Shown: positions 2,686-19,563 of the stretch, piece by piece
Layout: each line of letters opens with the position of its first letter
Numbering within the stretch: the first letter of the stretch is position 1
Virus record (IMG/VR): IMGVR_UViG_2531839529_000008
DNA length: 23,343 bases
Reading direction: 5' to 3' (one strand)
From: a virus
Lineage: Duplodnaviria > Heunggongvirae > Uroviricota > Caudoviricetes
Made by a program: the position numbers and the translations under genes
The notes under the pieces: model-generated
What the model was told of the DNA's origin: nothing
What the model saw: the letters and a program-made list of their open reading frames with translations, nothing else
Databases searched by the model: none

Positions 2686-2724
2686 CGCAAAGTCTCCGCA
2701 ATTACACGCAAGAAAAAACCGCCA

Positions 2725-2892
2725 TCAGGCGGCTTGGTGTTCTTTCAGTTCTTCAATTCGAATATTGGTTACGTCTGCATGTGCTATCTGCGCCCATATC
2801 ATCCAGTGGTTATAACAGTCGTTGATGTTCTCTGCTTCGATAACCCTGTTGAATGGCTCTCCATTCCATTCACCTGTGACTCGGAAGTGCAT
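2725..2892 (-). CDS. Small hypothetical protein (55 aa), at the position of the lambda 55-codon ORF just upstream of xis
   Basis: Hand translation of the minus strand: MHFRVTGEWNGEPFNRVIEAENINDCYNHWMIWAQIAHADVTNIRIEELKEHQAA; below the 60-aa track cutoff. Confidence 0.45.
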   Translation of the reverse strand: MHFRVTGEWNGEPFNRVIEAENINDCYNHWMIWAQIAHADVTNIRIEELKEHQAA

Positions 2893-2975
2893 TTATCATC
2901 TCCATAAAACAAAACTCGCCGTAGCGAGTTCAGATATAATTTCCACCAAAGGCAGTAGTTGCTTGATGCTAAGAA

Positions 2976-3404
2976 TTATTCAATATCTATTCCTGTAATA
3001 TCTTTTATCTTTTTCCTTGCAAAGCCTTTTGCTAGTGATTTTGAAACACTCATAAGTGTACTAATTCCCTCATCCTTAAAGTTTGTTTTTATAGCTTGCC
3101 AGACATCCTTTTGACGTAAGTCAGCAATAAAATCATGCCCTCTTGCTGTCAACCTCAGTGGTACTTCGATCCAACTATATCCAACACCTTCCCCTAACGC
3201 TTTGGACAATATATGACCGAACCCAGGTTTTCCATCAACCCTGACTATTAATTCGTAGTCACATAATAATCGCATATGGAAAATAAAATCTTGGTCATAT
3301 CTATTAAAGCCATTATCCTCTAGTTCACTAAGCATCGTGTCAGGGCCACGAGTTTTTTCGAATGCGATAAGTAGATCTTTTAGATATTGCTGGTCTAATT
3401 TCAT
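2976..3404 (-). CDS. Hypothetical protein (142 aa), AT-rich accessory gene in the ea region
   Basis: Track ORF; GGAGG Shine-Dalgarno about 6 nt upstream of the ATG at 3404; function not recognised. Confidence 0.6.
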   Translation of the reverse strand: MKLDQQYLKDLLIAFEKTRGPDTMLSELEDNGFNRYDQDFIFHMRLLCDYELIVRVDGKPGFGHILSKALGEGVGYSWIEVPLRLTARGHDFIADLRQKDVWQAIKTNFKDEGISTLMSVSKSLAKGFARKKIKDITGIDIE

Positions 3405-3432
3405 TGCCGCCTCCGTGACATGTCACAGAGAT

Positions 3433-3771
3433 TTATATCATTAATTTTGTTTCGTGCCAGCCTTTGGTCACCCAGCATTGTGAGTCACCATTACACGGGC
3501 ATGAATTAACAGGAACTCTCTCGCCGCACTTACCGCACCGTTTTCTGCTGATCGATTTTATACGCCAGCGCACACGTGCATCATCCTGGCGGCTCAGTAA
3601 CGCGATGTACTCACCAAACTCGCAAGGCGCACGCCTGAAGCGACGCGTGGCACAGTTACGCTCCAGCATTTCAATTTCCTGAGCATCAAGTACAAGCTCC
3701 AGCTTACGCATACCGGATGATGCTTGCTTGGCTCTCTGATCGGCTTTGTGCTCTGTTGCTGATTTAGCCAT
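3433..3771 (-). CDS. Hypothetical Cys-rich putative zinc-binding protein (112 aa; alternative start at 3711 gives 92 aa)
   Basis: Track ORF; C-terminal cluster CGKCGERVPVNSCPCNGDSQC; AGGA upstream of the ATG at 3771; only 28 nt upstream of the 2976-3404 gene, suggesting one operon. Confidence 0.55.
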   Translation of the reverse strand: MAKSATEHKADQRAKQASSGMRKLELVLDAQEIEMLERNCATRRFRRAPCEFGEYIALLSRQDDARVRWRIKSISRKRCGKCGERVPVNSCPCNGDSQCWVTKGWHETKLMI

Positions 3772-3965
3772 TCTGCTTTTCCTGCATCAGGAGAAAGACA
3801 ATCATGGCGGCGCGGATACTTCCGGTATCTTTTTACGCGATATTCCCCTTCAATGGCACATACAAGAAGAGAGCCATCAACAGGAGTGATTGAGGAATCG
3901 ACAACCAGCAACGCTTAATTATCTATAGTGTCGTATTTGCTTCATAAAATATGGCGAATAACACA

Positions 3966-3998
3966 AAGCCCGCAGCAGCTCATTGTGCGGGCTTTTCT
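3966..3998. terminator. GC-rich hairpin (gcccgca...tgcgggc) with a T-rich tract on the plus side; candidate terminator bounding the 4065-4679 gene
   Basis: Inverted repeat read directly at 3968-3992 followed by ttttctta; direction ambiguous. Confidence 0.35.
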
Positions 3999-4064
3999 TA
4001 TACCTACTTCCTAGAGATAATTCTATGGAGGCATTAAATCAATACTGTCATTGGTAATATCATA

Positions 4065-4679
4065 TTATCTAAAAGTCTTTCCACTTTTAACATCTAGGTA
4101 TATTCTGTTCGACAACGTCATTCCTCCGCAATATGTGAAATAGATGTTTTCACCCTTATTGCTTGATGCCATCCACCCTCCGATTTCCTTAAAATCGCTT
4201 TCCGTGCAGACCCCTTCATTTATTAACTTCCTAGCTGCCGAAGAAAACTCTTTTTTGTATATACGGTAGTCATCAGATCCTTTGATTAAAGTATCATCTC
4301 CGCTCGCATTTTCAGCAGGATCTGATGGCCTTTCACTGCTAAGATCACTAAGTTTAACCCATTCTGAAAACTTGCCATTAACGATTCCATTTTTTCTTGT
4401 GCAGGATTTATTACCTTCTTTAATATATTCGCTTTCCCCTCCAACACATGAGGCTGAATATGGCTCAGTTATACGAACCCATTCACCTTTTTTTTCTAGA
4501 AAATCTACGCCTTCCCTGAAAAATAGTTTCCCAGCCACTCCACATTTACTTGAAGGGCAGGTATGTCTTTCCGTTCGATCAACAACAACCCATAGTTTTG
4601 ATTCATTTTTTGCCATTGCCGATGGTATTTGAGATGAGACAATTAACGTAAGCCCTAAAATTAGTATTGATTTTTTCAT
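4065..4679 (-). CDS. Secreted or periplasmic Cys-rich protein of unknown function (204 aa)
   Basis: Track ORF; N-terminal signal peptide MKKSILILGLTLIVSSQIPSAMA with AMA-K cleavage motif; six Cys in the mature part; AAGGA Shine-Dalgarno 8 nt upstream; AT-rich. Confidence 0.65.
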   Translation of the reverse strand: MKKSILILGLTLIVSSQIPSAMAKNESKLWVVVDRTERHTCPSSKCGVAGKLFFREGVDFLEKKGEWVRITEPYSASCVGGESEYIKEGNKSCTRKNGIVNGKFSEWVKLSDLSSERPSDPAENASGDDTLIKGSDDYRIYKKEFSSAARKLINEGVCTESDFKEIGGWMASSNKGENIYFTYCGGMTLSNRIYLDVKSGKTFR

Positions 4680-4977
4680 TGTAATTTCCTTTTACTTTTT
4701 ACAAAGCGTTTAATCATGGCTGATTATCTCTAAGTGTAGTAACAGCCTTGTGCGAAACATGTTACCAAATCGCCATTTCAGTGTATCCGCAGTTAGGCTG
4801 CCACTTCAAGGATTCCTAATTACATGGTACGTAAGCGTAAAATCCCGTTGGTTGGCGGGTAATAACTCTGATCAAATCTCCCTTGTCTTTTGCTCTTACG
4901 TATGCAGCTCTTGTGTATTCAACCCAGGCCTCCAGTTCAGCAATACGCTTACTTCCATCCGAGATAACACCTTCTAC

Positions 4978-5229
4978 TCACGCTGCTCGTTGAGTTTTGA
5001 TTTTTGCTGTCTCCAGCTCAACACGCAGTTTCCCCACCGTTAGCGCAATATCCTCGTTCTCCTGGTCGCGGCGTTTGATGTATTGCTGGTTTCTTTCCCG
5101 TTCATCCAGCAGTGTCAGCACAATCGATGGTGTTACCAGCTCATGGAAAAGGTCCGCGTCAAATCCCCAGTTGTCAGGCATTGCCTGCTCTGCCGCTTCA
5201 CGCAGTGCCTGAGAGTGAATTACGCTCAC
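4978..5229 (-). CDS. Hypothetical protein (83 aa) at the lambda ea22 position, ending at an in-frame TGA that is followed by 53 further sense codons
   Basis: Track ORF; start overlaps the stop of the upstream TraR-like gene (ATGA); hand translation beyond the TGA (4819-4977) stays open and protein-like. Confidence 0.5.
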   Translation of the reverse strand: MSVIHSQALREAAEQAMPDNWGFDADLFHELVTPSIVLTLLDERERNQQYIKRRDQENEDIALTVGKLRVELETAKIKTQRAA

Positions 5230-5447
5230 TTCGAACCTCTCTGTTTACTGATAAGCTCCAGATCTTCCTGGCAACTTGCACAAGTCCGACAACCCTGAAC
5301 GGCCAGGCGTCTTAGCTCATCTATGGGATCGCCACACTCACAACAATGAGTGGCAGATACAGCCTGGTGGTTCAGGCGGCGCATTTTTATTGCTGTGTTG
5401 CGCTGTAATTCTTCAATTTCTGATGCTGAATCAATGATGTCTGCCAT
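5226..5447 (-). CDS. TraR/DksA-family C4 zinc-finger protein (73 aa), lambda Orf73-like
   Basis: Track ORF; CxxC-x17-CxxC motif (CECGDP...CRTCASC); same size and position as the lambda TraR-like orf73. Confidence 0.7.
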   Translation of the reverse strand: MADIIDSASEIEELQRNTAIKMRRLNHQAVSATHCCECGDPIDELRRLAVQGCRTCASCQEDLELISKQRGSK

Positions 5448-8782: not shown

Positions 8783-8997
8783 CAAAGAAGATTTCCAATA
8801 ATCAGAACAAGTCGGCTCCTGTTTAGTTACGAGCGACATTGCTCAGTGTATTCACTCGTTGGAATGAATACACAGTGCAGTGTTTATTAGTATGCCTGTC
8901 TTTTAACCACATCAGGCTCGGTGGTTCTCGTGTACCCCTACAGCGAGAAATCGGATAAACTCTATTCACCCCTACAGAGAGCAAAAGAGAAACGCCG

Positions 8998-9579
8998 ATG
9001 AACAACTCATGGTGGCAGGAACTAATGCATTTTTTCCTGCAAGGAATGACACTTAAACAGTTGATTCATATGCTAATCATCCTAATCATATTGATTATTG
9101 TTATGCCTGTAAGCGTAAAAGAATGGATAAACCTGCATAATCCAGAAATCCTTCCTCATTACTGGATGTATTACATCCTGTTGTTTTGCGTTAGCTATGT
9201 GCTTAACGGCGTTGTTAATTCCGCTTATCACGCTGTGACTGAAAGAATTGAGATATTCGCTGCTCAGAAGCGCAAATCTAAAGAAGAGAAATACGTGCAA
9301 GATTTGTTTGATTCGTTAACTCTTGGAGAAAGAGCGTATTTGGCATTCGCTGTAGCCGCTAATAACCAGCTAAAGACAGAAAAGGGAAGCCCTGAAGCAA
9401 TCTCATTGCTCGAAAAAGGGCTTCTTATTCGGGTACCTTCTGCTACTGGATATCCTGAAATCGACCGTTTTGTTATCCCGGAACGCTATAGAAATGAGTG
9501 CTACATTAGGTTTGCTGGGAAGAAAGACAGTCTTATGGATGAACTTATCGCTCAGGATAAGCATGGCAAAAACAAGTAA
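8998..9579 (+). CDS. sieB: SieB-like superinfection exclusion membrane protein (193 aa)
   Basis: Track ORF; two strongly hydrophobic segments (LIHMLIILIILIIVMPV, YWMYYILLFCVSYVLNGVV); recognised as lambdoid SieB; convergent with N. Confidence 0.8.
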   Translation: MNNSWWQELMHFFLQGMTLKQLIHMLIILIILIIVMPVSVKEWINLHNPEILPHYWMYYILLFCVSYVLNGVVNSAYHAVTERIEIFAAQKRKSKEEKYVQDLFDSLTLGERAYLAFAVAANNQLKTEKGSPEAISLLEKGLLIRVPSATGYPEIDRFVIPERYRNECYIRFAGKKDSLMDELIAQDKHGKNK

Positions 9580-9595
9580 TTAGCAAATTAATTTA

Positions 9596-9868
9596 TCATC
9601 TCGCCGTCAGTTGTTTTGATTTCCGGTAGCCTGCCGCGTAAATGGCTACGTTTGGCAGGCAAATACTTCCACTGCATTCATCTGCCTTCTTGCAGCGAAG
9701 GCTTCCGAGTGATGCTGCTTTGTCTGCTCTGACGCAACCAGAGAGCTTTAGCGCAATTTTTCGCGCCAGTCGCTGTTCTTGCATTGCCTGCTCACGTTGA
9801 GCCTGTCTGCGTGCTCTGCGGCGATTTCTGGCGTTATCGTCAGCCAGATATGTAATGACTACTGCCAT
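9596..9868 (-). CDS. N: N-type transcription antiterminator (90 aa), not lambda N; resembles P22 gene 24 / phage 21 N
   Basis: Track ORF first gene downstream of PL/nutL; N-terminal arginine-rich motif NARNRRRARRQAQREQ; C-terminus LPNVAIYAAGYRKSKQLTAR resembles P22 gp24. Confidence 0.8.
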   Translation of the reverse strand: MAVVITYLADDNARNRRRARRQAQREQAMQEQRLARKIALKLSGCVRADKAASLGSLRCKKADECSGSICLPNVAIYAAGYRKSKQLTAR

Positions 9869-9975
9869 GTTGACCTCCGATGATTGACTTTGGCGGTGAC
9901 GCGCCGGGTGCTTATCTTCCGGTTGCCGTCGTGCAGCTGCACTTCACGTCACCCCAAAGCCAACTACTCTTTGGT

Positions 9976-10016
9976 TCCCGCATTTCGGCGGGACAATCCC
10001 ATCAATGTTAAAGAGC
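9976..10016 (-). promoter_or_regulatory. nutL: nutL: boxB hairpin (TCCCGCCGAAATGCGGGA on the minus strand, 9976-9993) and boxA-like GCTCTTTAACA (10006-10016)
   Basis: Identical 18-nt hairpin recurs at nutR (11127-11150); boxA-like element adjacent; location between PL and N. Confidence 0.7.
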
Positions 10017-10056
10017 CTGCCAATCTGTTCCGTTTGGCTACCAGCGTCCTGCCGAT

Positions 10057-10144
10057 GACTTAAATTTAAGATTTCTTTAACTATTGGTCAAGAGCGTTTT
10101 TGAAGAAAACTTAAATTTTGTTGCGAAGCTTAAGTTTTGCTTTG
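10057..10144 (-). promoter_or_regulatory. OL/PL region: PL -35 TTGACC (comp 10086-10091), 17-nt spacer, -10 TAAATT (comp 10063-10068); overlapping P22-type operator half-sites
   Basis: Promoter hexamers and operator ATTTAAGATTTCTTTAAC (10064-10081) read directly. Confidence 0.65.
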
Positions 10145-10150
10145 ATTTTT

Positions 10151-10180
10151 AAAGGAAAGAAAAAAAGGGGCGAATGCCCC
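10151..10180 (-). terminator. Rho-independent terminator immediately downstream of c2 (hairpin ggggcgaatgcccc plus U-run)
   Basis: Perfect inverted repeat 10167-10180 with an A-run at 10155-10166 on the plus strand, giving a U-run on the minus transcript. Confidence 0.7.
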
Positions 10181-10831
10181 TTATGGAAGGTTTGCTATTT
10201 TTGCATCGACAACTACACCGATGATTTTGCAGTTCCCGTTGATCTCAATCATCGGATATTGTGGGTTAAGTGGTTTTAGAAACCTTCTGCCAGCATCAAT
10301 AACTAACTTCTTGAAAGTTGCCTCGTTTTCTCCTTCGAGCTTTGCCACTACCAGCTTCCCATTACGAGGTTCTACTTCAGGATCGACTAGTATTATCATC
10401 CCTTCCGGGATGCTAAGACCGGCTGGAGCCGTCATCGAATCACCCTTTACGTCCAGCCAAAACGAATCTTCTGAACAATCTACGGTTGTATCGTACCAGT
10501 TATCTATTGCACGCTTATGATATGGCTCTACAGCTTCCATCCAACATCCTGCGCTTACCCAACTAATTAGAGGATACGAACCTCTTGGATCATGCCTGCT
10601 GTGATAGGCAATGTTTGAAAGACTATCTTCTCCTTTCAACAAGTAATCAGGGGAGCACTGTAAAGCCTTGGCTAAAGCCAATAGGTTTTCGCCATTGGGC
10701 TCAGTTTCAGAACGCTCCCATTGGGAAATAGCAACATTAGACACGCCAACCATCTTGCCAAGGGCAGCCTGCCTAATCTTAAGTTCTTTTCTGCGAGCGC
10801 GAATACGCTCACCCATCAGTTGTGTATTCAT
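10181..10831 (-). CDS. c2: P22 C2-type phage repressor (HTH N-domain, LexA-like autocleavage C-domain)
   Basis: 216-aa ORF; translation recognised as near-identical to P22 C2 (QAALGKMVGVSNVAISQWERSE helix-turn-helix). Confidence 0.93.
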   Translation of the reverse strand: MNTQLMGERIRARRKELKIRQAALGKMVGVSNVAISQWERSETEPNGENLLALAKALQCSPDYLLKGEDSLSNIAYHSRHDPRGSYPLISWVSAGCWMEAVEPYHKRAIDNWYDTTVDCSEDSFWLDVKGDSMTAPAGLSIPEGMIILVDPEVEPRNGKLVVAKLEGENEATFKKLVIDAGRRFLKPLNPQYPMIEINGNCKIIGVVVDAKIANLP

Positions 10832-10911
10832 AGTTAAGACATCTTAAATAAACTTGACTTAAGATTCCTTTGATAGATAATTTAAGTGTTCTTTAATTTC
10901 GGAGCGAGTCT
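10832..10911. promoter_or_regulatory. OR region with three 18-bp operators (10832-10849, 10857-10874, 10880-10897) and PR (-35 TTGACT 10854-10859, -10 ATAATT 10877-10882)
   Basis: Operator half-site pattern AnTnAAG-N4-CTTnAnT read three times; PR has a 17-nt spacer and faces cro. Confidence 0.75.
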
Positions 10912-11097
10912 ATGTACAAGAAAGATGTTATCGACCACTTCGGAACCCAGCGTGCGGTAGCTAAAGCGTTAGGCATTAGCGATGCAGCAGTCTCTCAGTG
11001 GAAGGAAGTCATCCCAGAGAAAGACGCCTATCGACTGGAAGTCGTTACAGCTGGCGCCCTGAAGTATCAAGAAAGTGCTTATCGCAAAGCGGCATAA
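10912..11097 (+). CDS. cro: Cro, P22 type (61 aa)
   Basis: Track ORF; translation recognised as P22 Cro. Confidence 0.93.
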   Translation: MYKKDVIDHFGTQRAVAKALGISDAAVSQWKEVIPEKDAYRLEVVTAGALKYQESAYRKAA

Positions 11098-11103
11098 GCA
11101 AAT

Positions 11104-11150
11104 TGCTCTTTAACAGTCATGGTCCTTATTCCCGCCGAAATGCGGGAATA
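11104..11150 (+). promoter_or_regulatory. nutR: nutR: boxA-like TGCTCTTTAACA (11104-11115) and boxB hairpin (11127-11150)
   Basis: Same boxB core as nutL, downstream of cro. Confidence 0.7.
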
Positions 11151-11205
11151 CAACGCGCATCAGTTGGTGCGTATAACTTCTTATTTGTTAAGGAAATACT
11201 TACAT

Positions 11206-11484
11206 ATGCAACTTACAAGTACTCGCAAGAAAGCGAATGCAATCACAAGCAACATCCTGAATCGAATTGCTGTACGTGGTCAGCGAAAGGTTGCTGATGC
11301 ATTAGGGATTAATGAATCGCAAATTTCGCGATGGAAAGACAGCTTTATCCCAAAGATGGCCATGCTTCTGGCTGTGCTGGAGTGGGGTGTTGAAGACGAG
11401 GAATTAGCAAAGCTAGCAAAGAAAGTAGCCATGGTGCTGACAAAAGAAAAGCCTCAAGACTGCTGCAACAGTTTTGAGGCCTGA
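11206..11484 (+). CDS. c1: C1 (lambda CII-like) lysogeny establishment activator, 92 aa
   Basis: Internal start of track ORF 11119-11484 (MQLTSTRKK...), preceded by AAGGA; shares the CII-family motif SQISRWK...MLLAVLEWGV. Confidence 0.85.
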   Translation: MQLTSTRKKANAITSNILNRIAVRGQRKVADALGINESQISRWKDSFIPKMAMLLAVLEWGVEDEELAKLAKKVAMVLTKEKPQDCCNSFEA

Positions 11485-11508
11485 TGTAGAAAGACTGGAT
11501 CAATCCAC
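11441..11508 (-). ncRNA. oop: Candidate OOP-like antisense RNA overlapping the 3' end of c1, with terminator hairpin at 11451-11480
   Basis: Minus-strand hairpin followed by a U-rich run (plus 11441-11450 caaaagaaaa); 5' end placed by analogy to lambda pO; lambda-like sequence around the O start. Confidence 0.4.
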
Positions 11509-19212: not shown

Positions 19213-19563
19213 TTGTATGCGATATCATCCAAAAGGATGAGTTCCTGCATGCAGGATATTTACAATCGTAAAAACTACACTATGATACCCAGAGTGTCAG
19301 TTTGTATAAAAACTCTGTTTACGCTGAAGAAACAATTGAGATGCAACTTAAAGTTGGTAAACATGCCAGTCAAAATATATAATATTATGATTCCACGCAG
19401 CTATATATAATATAACAGATTGGTTTAATAATTTGTCTTTGTGAGTTAAATACATAATTTTATACTTGTGATGTAATGAAATTTTCCTTATTGTTGAACT
19501 GGCGAATATTGATTTTCCACCTATACTTACCTGGTGTAACCCCAATGATATCAGGTGGATAAT

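What the first reader, a model, noticed from the sequence alone, without database searches (positions are those of the whole stretch)
2893..3960. Two-gene AT-rich cassette of unknown function in the int-proximal ea region
Between the small xis-adjacent ORF and the ea22/orf73-position genes lie a 142-aa gene and a 112-aa Cys-rich putative zinc-binding gene, 28 nt apart on the leftward strand, each with a good ribosome-binding site. Neither is recognised as a classical lambda function, and they are visibly lower in GC than the flanking recombination genes. This region is a known hotspot for accessory cargo in lambdoid phages, so the pair is a candidate superinfection-exclusion, defence or host-takeover module.
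Basis: partly seen in the sequence, partly recalled or inferred. Interest (0 to 1): 0.6.

Follow-up and report, generated by a model that had tools for sequence, protein, structure and literature searches.

The report
Borrowed pair of small DNA-binding regulators
The two genes are real, but they look like a pair of small DNA-binding regulator genes that a lambda-like prophage picked up from the early/late gene boundary of an epsilon15-type phage, with one of the two visibly decaying, rather than a new anti-phage defence system.

Summary
Both ORFs exist as described: minus strand, 28 nt apart, each with a Shine-Dalgarno sequence. The window is a lambda-like prophage at ybhC. This stretch is 100% identical to phage Chlobot and to prophages in about 130 complete E. 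coli genomes.

Only the DUF2513 gene is AT-rich (36% GC); the 112-aa gene is 50% GC.

The pair is a genuine recurrent unit. In Cronobacter and other prophages the same two genes sit 25-28 nt apart just upstream of terS. An invariant 12-bp palindrome, GTGACATGTCAC, follows every 112-aa gene. phiV10 has further copies at operon boundaries beside terminators.

Here the pair was transplanted into lambda's exo-xis region in place of ea8.5. In this setting the 112-aa gene is broken in 24 of 40 sampled prophages, while DUF2513 is intact in 38 of 40.

No defence signature was found. Interest is low to moderate.

The parts
2912..2931 (-). Terminator-like hairpin (GAACTCGC-TACG-GCGAGTTT + TGTTTTATGG) between the DUF2513 stop and orf55. 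It lies in lambda-homologous DNA.
   Evidence: Terminator scan. Lambda homology covers window 2686-2940.
2941..3829 (-). Transplanted non-lambda segment: ninX 3' remnant, 112-aa gene, palindrome, DUF2513 gene, and 35 nt of 3' flank.
   Evidence: Lambda homology ends at 2940. Homology to TL-2011b / phiV10 (about 90%) spans 3440-3829. The same gene pair is found before terS in Cronobacter prophages.
2976..3404 (-). 142-aa DUF2513 protein: a winged helix-turn-helix followed by three C-terminal helices. AT-rich (36.4% GC).
3405..3414 (-). Shine-Dalgarno region (GGAGGCGGCA) of the DUF2513 gene, immediately 3' of the palindrome.
   Evidence: Sequence. The same layout of palindrome, SD, then ATG occurs in Cronobacter, Citrobacter and Serratia, and upstream of the Y11B-like gene in E. 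coli epsilon15-like loci.
3415..3426 (.). Perfect 12-bp palindrome GTGACATGTCAC. It is the probable operator of the 112-aa RHH-Zn protein.
   Evidence: Single copy in the window and in Chlobot. Present at the 3' end of every 112-aa gene fetched in the first round. Perfect in 50 of 56 IMG/VR epsilon15-type loci. Invariant while its flanks vary. In phiV10 it gives 3 matches at up to 1 mismatch against 0.08 expected.
3432..3440 (-). TGATATAAA, an extended -10-like element overlapping the 112-aa stop codon, 5 nt upstream of the palindrome. A possible internal promoter for DUF2513; unverified.
   Evidence: Sequence. TGnTATAAA is also present in Cronobacter and Citrobacter, and TATAGT in Serratia, but absent from 112-aa loci that lack DUF2513. 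It was not called by the sigma-70 scan, which requires T at position 6.
3433..3771 (-). 112-aa protein of the epsilon15 gp49 / phiV10 gp55 family. It has an N-terminal basic arm and ribbon-helix-helix domain (about aa 8-70) and a C-terminal CxxC-x7/8-C-x7/8-C putative zinc ribbon (aa 79-99). The ORF is intact here but carries substitutions at near-invariant positions (P45F, G46R, Y50C, I60S, G69W).
   Evidence: PHROG 536, E 7e-48, full length. hhalign against YbfE: 93% probability, E 3e-7. Cys conservation. Deviant residues. phiV10 annotation note.
3764..3829 (-). 3'-terminal remnant of a ninX / DUF2591-type gene that precedes the 112-aa gene in epsilon15-like phages.
   Evidence: The match to TL-2011b extends 58 nt beyond the 112-aa ATG into gp19 (DUF2591/NinX), whose stop overlaps the ATG by 8 nt.
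3804..3911 (-). UmuD-like (peptidase S24) pseudogene fragment. The 105-aa ORF at 3594-3911 that Chlobot annotates as 'UmuD-like protein' is a read-through artefact.
   Evidence: PHROG 811 positions 68-102 of 140, and a weak PF00717 hit. RefSeq annotates it as 'DNA repair protein, incomplete'.
3967..3993 (.). GC-rich hairpin (AGCCCGCA...TGCGGGCT) downstream of the 204-aa gene. It is terminator-like and separates that gene from the cassette.
   Evidence: Sequence. The scan calls it on the + strand.

Best explanation
Window 2941-3829 is a regulatory two-gene module that originated at the early/late boundary of epsilon15/phiV10-like podophages. It was recombined into the exo-xis (ea8.5) position of a lambda-like phage.

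Gene 1 (112 aa) is a dimeric ribbon-helix-helix DNA-binding protein with a C-terminal 4-Cys zinc ribbon. Its most likely cognate site is the perfect palindrome GTGACATGTCAC, which lies immediately after its stop codon. In phiV10 the palindrome recurs at operon boundaries next to intrinsic terminators. There the protein is the positional candidate for the regulator of the early-to-late switch.

Gene 2 (142 aa, DUF2513) is an AT-rich winged-helix (MarR/PadR-like) DNA-binding protein. It travels just downstream of that palindrome.

In this prophage both genes lie on the N / pL-operon strand, so they would be made as delayed-early products together with the other exo-xis proteins. The RHH-Zn protein has only its one adjacent site left. 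Its only plausible action is therefore to modulate DUF2513 and downstream transcription. It appears to be drifting towards a pseudogene, while DUF2513 is the part that is kept.

Shown: the family memberships, the folds or homology, the synteny, the palindrome conservation, and the decay pattern. Inferred: who binds the palindrome, pL-driven expression, and any role in phage development.
For: Identity and folds.
- DUF2513 scores above the Pfam cutoff. Its AF2 model is confident and has a MarR/PadR-type winged-helix fold.
- The 112-aa protein matches PHROG 536 over its full length. Its aa 8-70 are homologous to the YbfE RHH domain: hhalign 93% probability, E 3e-7.
- The 4-Cys motif is conserved in all 56 homologues.

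Origin.
- Window 3440-3829 is about 90% identical to TL-2011b / phiV10, including 58 nt of the upstream ninX gene.
- The homologue is the last early gene before terS in phiV10-type prophages.
- Cronobacter prophages carry the 112-aa gene, 27-28 nt of spacer, DUF2513, then terS.
- 13 of the divergent IMG/VR DUF2513 loci have a 112-aa homologue (47-62% identity) ending directly upstream.
- DUF2513-only loci in Citrobacter and Serratia keep a decayed 3' remnant of the 112-aa gene.

Palindrome.
- It is present after every 112-aa gene regardless of the downstream gene, and is invariant while the flanks vary.
- It is degenerate or lost in most lineages lacking an intact 112-aa gene.
- phiV10 has perfect copies at 2262 and 19493 and a one-mismatch copy across the gp55/terS junction, all beside terminators. 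The search tool found 3 matches at up to 1 mismatch against 0.08 expected.
- It is absent from the immunity regions.

Context.
- The N-like gene (9596-9868) and the cI-like gene (10181-10831) place pL upstream on the same strand.
- The sigma-70 scan found no promoter-like site on the minus strand of the interval.

Decay.
- The 112-aa ORF is disrupted in 24 of 40 lambda-context loci by several independent lesions, whereas DUF2513 is intact in 38 of 40.
- IS1 replaces the 112-aa gene but spares DUF2513 in some genomes.
- dN/dS is 0.97 within the lambda-context lineage, against 0-0.14 among phiV10-type copies.
- Chlobot has only one palindrome copy.
Against: - No experiment links either protein to DNA binding or to the palindrome; the assignment of the binder rests on co-occurrence only.
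- The AF2 model of the 112-aa monomer is poor (pLDDT 59) and predicts a helix where an RHH strand should be.
- Pfam RHH families are hit only weakly, in 5 of 56 homologues.
- phiV10's own gene-adjacent palindrome copy has one mismatch.
- Three DUF2513-only lineages keep a perfect palindrome.
- No conserved promoter geometry around the palindrome could be found, so activation, repression and roadblock cannot be told apart.
- DUF2513 itself shows only weak constraint within E. coli (16 synonymous, 26 nonsynonymous, 1 nonsense polymorphism).
- The sampled loci are phylogenetically non-independent.
Confidence: 0.55

Rival explanations
1. One reading: the pair, or DUF2513 alone, is a prophage-encoded superinfection-exclusion or anti-phage defence module expressed in the lysogen.
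For: - It sits in a variable accessory slot of lambdoid phages.
- DUF2513 is AT-rich and moron-like. It has an extended -10-like element upstream, and intrinsic terminators directly downstream in Serratia and Cronobacter.
- It moves between different positions in unrelated prophages: the nin region, next to int, and before terS.
- It stays intact even in heavily deleted prophage remnants.
Against: - No PADLOC hit for either protein.
- No effector, enzymatic or membrane domain; both are small DNA-binding folds.
- It is always co-oriented with phage early transcription.
- The sigma-70 scan finds no promoter-like site on the coding strand.
- The 112-aa partner is dispensable.
Confidence: 0.12
2. 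It is a recombination scar with no current function. The cassette hitch-hiked into the exo-xis region during illegitimate recombination and both genes are drifting.
For: - The segment is embedded among gene fragments: the ninX 3' end, a UmuD-like fragment and a truncated ea22.
- The 112-aa gene is near neutrality (8 synonymous, 18 nonsynonymous, 2 nonsense polymorphisms; dN/dS 0.97) and is often broken.
- DUF2513 polymorphism within E. coli is only mildly constrained (16 synonymous, 26 nonsynonymous).
- IS1 insertions are frequent nearby.
Against: - DUF2513 is intact in 38 of 40 loci where its equally sized neighbour is broken in 24 of 40.
- Across genera, DUF2513 dN is about 0.18 with saturated dS, and 18 residues are invariant, including the putative recognition helix (FxFHMR) and the wing (RLTxxGH).
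- The cassette is present in a viable isolated phage, Chlobot.
Confidence: 0.2
3. It is a type II toxin-antitoxin-like pair, with an RHH antitoxin (112 aa) and DUF2513 as toxin, or the reverse.
For: RHH proteins are common antitoxins. The two small genes are co-directional with a short spacer and a palindrome nearby.
Against: - Each gene occurs widely without the other. The 112-aa gene is alone in phiV10, TL-2011b and Salmonella prophages. DUF2513 is alone in Citrobacter and Serratia.
- DUF2513 remains intact in 24 loci where the RHH gene is disrupted, which a toxin would not tolerate.
- The palindrome lies downstream of the RHH gene, not upstream.
- DUF2513 is a winged-helix fold, not a known toxin fold.
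Confidence: 0.03

Closest known systems
Epsilon15 gp49 / phiV10 gp55 (PHROG 536, annotated 'transcriptional regulator'; uncharacterised)
   Same: The 112-aa protein is a full-length member: PHROG E 7e-48, 86-88% amino-acid identity to E. coli phiV10-type copies, and about 90% nucleotide identity. It has the same 3'-adjacent palindrome.
   Different: Here the gene sits in a lambda exo-xis region rather than before terS. It has lost the other palindrome copies. It carries substitutions at near-invariant residues and is frequently pseudogenised in this context.
E. coli YbfE (LexA-regulated ribbon-helix-helix protein) and the CopG/Arc/MetJ RHH superfamily
   Same: Residues 8-70 align to YbfE 37-94 with hhalign probability 93%. 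The pattern is a basic arm, a beta-strand and two helices. A 12-bp palindrome is a typical size for a single RHH-dimer site (general knowledge).
   Different: There is an extra C-terminal 4-Cys domain that YbfE lacks. No Pfam RHH family reaches its threshold. DNA binding is untested.
DUF2513 (PF10711) and MarR/PadR-type winged-helix regulators
   Different: There is no sequence-level match to MarR or PadR families or to any PDB chain. No ligand or operator is known, and the family has no functional literature.
Lambda exo-xis region small proteins (Ea8.5 homeodomain/zinc-finger, Orf73 TraR-like, phi24B Gp05 wHTH)
   Same: The slot between ea22 and xis is the same. The theme is the same: small, early-expressed, zinc-binding or DNA-binding proteins thought to tune the lysis-lysogeny decision (PMC8614690; PMC7093339).
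   Different: There is no homology to Ea8.5: no PDB hit although Ea8.5 homologues are solved. hhalign against the window's own Orf73 gives only 7% probability.
Late-gene regulators encoded just upstream of the late operon (lambda Q with QBE/pR'/tR'; P2 Ogr zinc-finger activator)
   Same: In phiV10-type phages the 112-aa homologue is the last early gene. It is followed by its putative site, then a terminator, then terS. It is a small zinc-binding, DNA-binding protein. No Q-type gene is annotated in phiV10.
   Different: This is a positional analogy only, with no sequence or fold relationship shown. No promoter was identified around the palindrome. In this window a lambda-type Q system already exists: Chlobot encodes a Q-like protein.

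Membership tests
DUF2513 (Pfam PF10711) | Full-length HMM match above the gathering score | tested here: met
   42.5 bits against a cutoff of 29.6, covering aa 2-115 of the protein and 1-100 of the 100-position model. All 99 homologues carry PF10711 except two short fragments.
PHROG 536 / epsilon15 gp49 - phiV10 gp55 family | Full-length profile match and conserved length (about 112 aa) | tested here: met
   E 7.3e-48, aa 1-111 against profile positions 2-114 of 115. 394 homologues, mostly 112 aa.
Ribbon-helix-helix (CopG/Arc/MetJ) DNA-binding superfamily | Sequence-profile homology to a bona fide RHH domain | tested here: met
   hhalign of the 56-sequence profile against E. coli YbfE: probability 93%, E 3e-7, 58 columns. 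There is also a weak NCBIfam YbfE hit, E 0.007.
Ribbon-helix-helix (CopG/Arc/MetJ) DNA-binding superfamily | Beta-alpha-alpha fold forming an intertwined dimer | tested here: inconclusive
   The AF2 monomer model has pLDDT 59 and is all-helical. Pfam RHH_1, RHH_5 and RepB-RCR_reg hit only at E 0.01-0.07, in 5 of 56 members.
Zinc-ribbon / 4-Cys zinc-binding domain | Four conserved Cys ligands in a CxxC...C...C arrangement | tested here: met
   C79 in 56/56, C82 in 56/56, a Cys at position 90 or 91 in 56/56, and C99 in 55/56. Metal binding itself is not testable here.
DksA/TraR C4 zinc-finger family (as lambda Orf73) | Profile homology to TraR/Orf73, including the coiled-coil and the CxxC-x17-CxxC motif | tested here: not met
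   The PDB profile search gives TraR and YbiI only at E about 0.1, over the CxxCG..P motif. hhalign against the window's Orf73 gives 7% probability.
MarR/PadR winged-helix transcription factors | Winged helix-turn-helix fold with a helical dimerisation extension | tested here: met
Known anti-phage defence systems (PADLOC-DB v2) | Any component HMM match | tested here: not met
   Zero hits at E up to 1 for both proteins, the 204-aa neighbour and the UmuD-like ORF.
Type II toxin-antitoxin pair | Obligate co-occurrence, and intolerance of antitoxin loss | tested here: not met
   Each gene occurs alone in many prophages. DUF2513 is intact in loci where the RHH gene is broken.
Moron (autonomous promoter-gene-terminator unit) | Own promoter upstream and terminator downstream, with deviant base composition | tested here: inconclusive
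   The composition of DUF2513 is deviant (36% GC, against 50% for its partner, in every genus). Terminators follow it in Serratia and Cronobacter, and a hairpin follows it here. Only an imperfect extended -10-like TGnTATAAA is present, with no -35 and no scan hit.

The most novel reading that the evidence does not exclude
The gp49/gp55-family RHH-zinc-ribbon protein may be the so-far unidentified early-to-late switch regulator of epsilon15/phiV10-like (Uetakevirus) phages. It would act at GTGACATGTCAC sites placed beside intrinsic terminators at operon boundaries. That would make it functionally Q-like (terminator or antitermination control, or boundary insulation) but built on an RHH fold. 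The copy in this lambda-like prophage would be an orphaned regulator caught in the act of decay. DUF2513 would be an independently selected winged-helix cargo gene that uses the palindrome region as its insertion or expression site.
Probability: 0.2. Interest if true: 0.55.

Novelty: new member of a known kind. Interest (0 to 1): 0.27.

Why it matters
For this window, very little. It is ordinary lambdoid mosaicism that replaces ea8.5 with two catalogued but unstudied small DNA-binding proteins. It is already present in a deposited phage (Chlobot) and in about 3% of complete E. coli genomes.

Three modest points of value remain:
- The locus should be removed from lists of candidate defence systems.
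- It gives a concrete, testable protein-site pair (the RHH-Zn protein and GTGACATGTCAC) for a family with several hundred members and no literature. That pair may explain late-gene control in epsilon15/phiV10-type phages.
- It is a clean natural example of a regulator decaying after being moved away from its regulon, while the neighbouring cargo gene is retained.

Tried and rejected
- PADLOC scan of both proteins and their neighbours: no hits.
- PDB sequence searches with single sequences and with profiles: nothing for DUF2513. For the 112-aa family there were only weak TraR/YbiI hits. The TraR lead was then rejected by hhalign against Orf73, at 7% probability.
- AF2 of the 112-aa protein with a shallow alignment: pLDDT 59, unusable, so no fold search was run on it.
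- The afdb50 fold library was unavailable. The BFVD search gave only uncharacterised proteins.
- RNA-hairpin explanation of the palindrome. In the window an 8-bp stem can sequester the SD, but the z-score is -0.62. The flanking extensions that form the longer stem are not conserved in other genera. Rejected.
- Sigma-70 promoter scan: no promoter-like site on the coding strand. My attempts to place the palindrome in a conserved -35 / spacer / -10 geometry did not hold across lineages.
- cos-site idea. The phiV10 record breaks inside the palindrome, but it ends exactly at the gp55 stop codon, so this is probably an annotation convention. Not pursued.
- CI-operator idea: there are no palindrome copies in the immunity regions.
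- Toxin-antitoxin idea: rejected by the distribution and the decay pattern.
- A co-divergence test of the two genes was weak (Spearman 0.27) and was compromised by my crude ORF caller picking wrong frames in a few loci. I use only the GC values from it.
- The search for related loci with the divergent alignment A3 failed for lack of conserved stretches. The A2 scan returned only close relatives.
- Literature searches for DUF2513, Uetakevirus late genes, and YbfE found nothing functional. The ZX5 paper concerns other regulators.
Full report
SETTING

The window is a lambda-like prophage integrated next to ybhC. All the genes below are on the minus strand:
- ybhC, 1-1284
- int, 1419-2489
- xis, 2467-2685
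- orf55, 2725-2892
- the 142-aa ORF, 2976-3404
- the 112-aa ORF, 3433-3771
- a 204-aa ORF, 4065-4679
- a truncated ea22, 4978-5229
- the TraR-like orf73, 5226-5447
- exo, bet, gam and kil

Further up the same strand lie an N-like gene (9596-9868) and a cI-like repressor (10181-10831). The interval therefore belongs to the leftward pL operon, in what the literature calls the exo-xis region (PMC8614690).

Window 2686-4750 is 100% identical to the isolated phage Chlobot (PP925838.1). It is at least 80% covered in 131 complete E. coli genomes.

Yes, for the ORFs. Coordinates, strand, the 28-nt spacer and both Shine-Dalgarno sequences are as described. Both ORFs have large homologue families. Antisense ORFs in the interval have no family match.

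The 'AT-rich cassette' description is only half right. The 142-aa gene is 36.4% GC (GC3 28.7%). The 112-aa gene is 50.4% GC, indistinguishable from xis, exo and bet. The same 13-20-point GC contrast between the two genes is seen in other genera.

- 58 nt of the 3' end of a ninX/DUF2591-type gene (3772-3829).
- A UmuD-like fragment (3804-3911).

WHAT THE PROTEINS ARE

The 142-aa protein is a DUF2513 protein (PF10711, above the gathering cutoff; PHROG 585). With a 39-sequence alignment, AF2 gives a confident model (pLDDT 93.9). The model is a winged helix-turn-helix followed by three helices.

The 112-aa protein has no Pfam domain, but it is a full-length member of PHROG 536. This is the family of phiV10 gp55 and epsilon15 gp49. 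A profile of 56 divergent homologues aligns residues 8-70 to the ribbon-helix-helix protein YbfE of E. coli, with hhalign probability 93% and E 3e-7. All 56 homologues keep a CxxC-x7/8-C-x7/8-C motif.

A tempting TraR/DksA link (weak PDB hits) failed a direct profile test against the window's own Orf73. The AF2 monomer model is poor, as expected for an obligate RHH dimer, and was not used.

IS IT A CASSETTE?

Neighbourhood comparison at first suggested that it is not:
- The 112-aa gene alone lies at the very end of the early operon, just before terS, in phiV10/TL-2011b-type prophages.
- It also lies alone in the nin region of Salmonella lambdoids.
- DUF2513 alone lies in Citrobacter nin regions and next to int in Serratia prophages.

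Three further results then showed that the pair is ancestral:
- Cronobacter epsilon15-like prophages carry the 112-aa gene, 27-28 nt of spacer, DUF2513 and then terS.
- Thirteen divergent IMG/VR loci have a 112-aa homologue (47-62% identity) ending directly upstream of DUF2513.
- The 'DUF2513-only' Citrobacter and Serratia loci still carry a decayed 40-85-nt remnant of the 112-aa gene's 3' end in front of DUF2513.

The window's segment 3440-3829 is about 90% identical to TL-2011b, including the tail of the upstream ninX gene. Lambda homology resumes at 2940. Hence 2941-3829 is a block moved from an epsilon15-like early/late boundary into the ea8.5 slot of a lambda-like phage.

A CONSERVED CIS ELEMENT

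The 28-nt spacer contains a perfect 12-bp palindrome, GTGACATGTCAC (3415-3426). It lies between the 112-aa stop codon and the DUF2513 Shine-Dalgarno sequence.
- It follows every 112-aa gene examined in the first round, whatever gene comes next: DUF2513, a Y11B-like gene, or a terminator.
- It is perfect in 50 of 56 further IMG/VR loci.
- It stays invariant while its flanks vary among homologues only 47-62% identical.
- Where the 112-aa gene has been lost, the palindrome is usually degenerate or gone, although three lineages keep it.

In phiV10 there are perfect copies just after the terL terminator (2262) and just before the terminator that ends the structural operon (19493). There is also a one-mismatch copy spanning the gp55/terS junction, followed by a terminator. 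The tool finds 3 matches at up to 1 mismatch where 0.08 are expected. In 36 of 56 related loci a second perfect copy lies 2.26-2.45 kb downstream, so the two copies bracket terS-terL.

The palindrome is absent from the immunity regions. An RNA-hairpin explanation is not supported: the z-score is -0.62 and the stem extensions are not conserved.

The simplest reading is that this is the DNA site of the RHH-Zn protein. That is an inference from linkage, not a demonstrated interaction.

STATE OF THE GENES IN THIS CONTEXT

Chlobot and the window have only the single palindrome copy. The regulator has therefore been separated from its other sites.

The window allele has an intact ORF, but it carries changes at near-invariant positions: P45F, G46R, Y50C, I60S and G69W.

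Among 40 lambda-context IMG/VR loci, the 112-aa ORF is disrupted in 24. The lesions are independent: stop codons at C40 and at C79, two kinds of 5' deletion, a frameshift and a replacement. DUF2513 is intact in 38 of the same 40 loci.
- E. coli ATCC 8739 has the C40 stop.
- In other genomes IS1 removes the 112-aa gene but leaves DUF2513.

dN/dS is 0-0.14 among phiV10-type copies. It is 0.25-0.31 between those copies and the lambda-context lineage. Within that lineage it is 0.97.

Polymorphism counts for the 112-aa gene are 8 synonymous, 18 nonsynonymous and 2 nonsense. For DUF2513 they are 16 synonymous, 26 nonsynonymous and 1 nonsense. DUF2513 is thus kept open but is only weakly constrained on this short timescale. 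All these samples are phylogenetically non-independent.

MECHANISM, BEST GUESS

Both genes are transcribed from pL as delayed-early genes. This follows from their strand and position relative to N and cI. The sigma-70 scan also found no promoter-like site on their strand.

The RHH-Zn protein, if still active, would bind the palindrome between its own stop codon and the DUF2513 ribosome-binding site. It would thereby modulate DUF2513 and downstream transcription.

An imperfect extended -10-like TGATATAAA lies 5 nt upstream of the palindrome. It recurs wherever DUF2513 follows. This leaves open a weak internal promoter with the palindrome at about +1.

DUF2513, with its conserved recognition helix, most likely binds a conserved DNA target, in the host or common to these phages. 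Like other exo-xis proteins, it may tune phage development.

In its native phages the RHH-Zn protein is the positional candidate for the early-to-late regulator. It is the last early gene, no Q-type gene is annotated, and its sites lie beside terminators.

RIVALS

- Defence or exclusion (about 0.12) has only circumstantial support and no family evidence.
- A functionless recombination scar (about 0.2) fits the 112-aa gene, but fits DUF2513 less well.
- A toxin-antitoxin pair is essentially excluded by the distribution and decay pattern.

NOVELTY AND VERDICT

Both families are catalogued, and the exact DNA is in public phage and genome records. Replacement of ea8.5 by other small DNA-binding proteins is the expected behaviour of this region. 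I file this as a new member of a known kind: small phage DNA-binding regulators in the exo-xis mosaic.

The one new, testable item is the pairing of the RHH-Zn protein with the palindrome, and its terminator-adjacent distribution in phiV10-type phages. Interest is 0.27.

Noticed in passing
window 4065-4679 (-), with hairpin 3967-3993: A 204-aa ORF (PHROG 8310, full length, function unknown) with an N-terminal signal-peptide-like sequence (MKKSILILGLTLIVSSQIPSAMA|K). It has no lipobox Cys despite a weak LPAM hit, and a weak SH3_3 hit. It is AT-rich (38% GC, GC3 30%) and followed by its own GC-rich hairpin. It looks more like a classical secreted moron than the two genes in the finding.
   Followed up: partly
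L196 (phiV10) 2262-2273, 19493-19504, the junction 39101-39104/1-8, and 5306-5317: The palindrome GTGACATGTCAC occurs at operon boundaries next to intrinsic terminators: after the terL terminator, before the terminator ending the structural operon, and between gp55 and terS. In 36 of 56 related IMG/VR loci two perfect copies bracket terS-terL. In phiV10 and in E. coli and Cronobacter prophages the second copy often abuts a reverse-oriented PF13876 (Sf6 gp66-like) gene. Why the sites sit beside terminators and variable cargo is unexplained.
   Followed up: partly
window 3594-3911 (-) and L001 4748-4888 / 4909-5226 (Chlobot): The Chlobot GenBank annotation calls a 105-aa 'UmuD-like protein' that is really a 36-aa S24 fragment reading out of frame into the 112-aa gene. 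It also truncates the 112-aa gene to a 46-aa 'transcriptional regulator'. RefSeq genomes annotate the full 112-aa ORF and a partial 'DNA repair protein' pseudogene.
   Followed up: yes
L022 4851-5548, L023 3530-4227, L024 3603-4300, H31: IS1 copies are inserted repeatedly in or next to this segment in different E. coli genomes. In some, everything in the prophage beyond DUF2513 has been deleted, leaving ybhC-int-xis-orf55-DUF2513-IS1.
   Followed up: partly
L035 (phiV10) 75-115; L027 about 4460-4490: Downstream of the terminator that follows gp55 or DUF2513, and just upstream of terS, there are repeated GGTA(A/C)TATTACCAC or TATTACCA...TGGTAAT motifs. They may be late-promoter, operator or packaging-related repeats of epsilon15-like phages.
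   Followed up: no
window 4978-5229 (-): The ORF at the ea22 position is only an 83-aa fragment of an Ead/Ea22-like protein. RefSeq marks it frameshifted and incomplete. The pro-lysogenic Ea22 function described for lambda is therefore probably absent from this prophage.
   Followed up: no
window 8961-11506 and several blocks beyond 12500: Only about 55% of the window is covered by exact 40-mers of Chlobot. The immunity region (N, cI) and several later blocks differ. The window is therefore a mosaic relative of Chlobot, not Chlobot itself.
   Followed up: no
L012-L016 (Salmonella) 5336-5400: In Salmonella lambdoid prophages the 112-aa gene uses the TGA inside the palindrome as its stop codon. 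It is followed within about 30 nt by a strong intrinsic terminator, again pairing the palindrome with a terminator.
   Followed up: no
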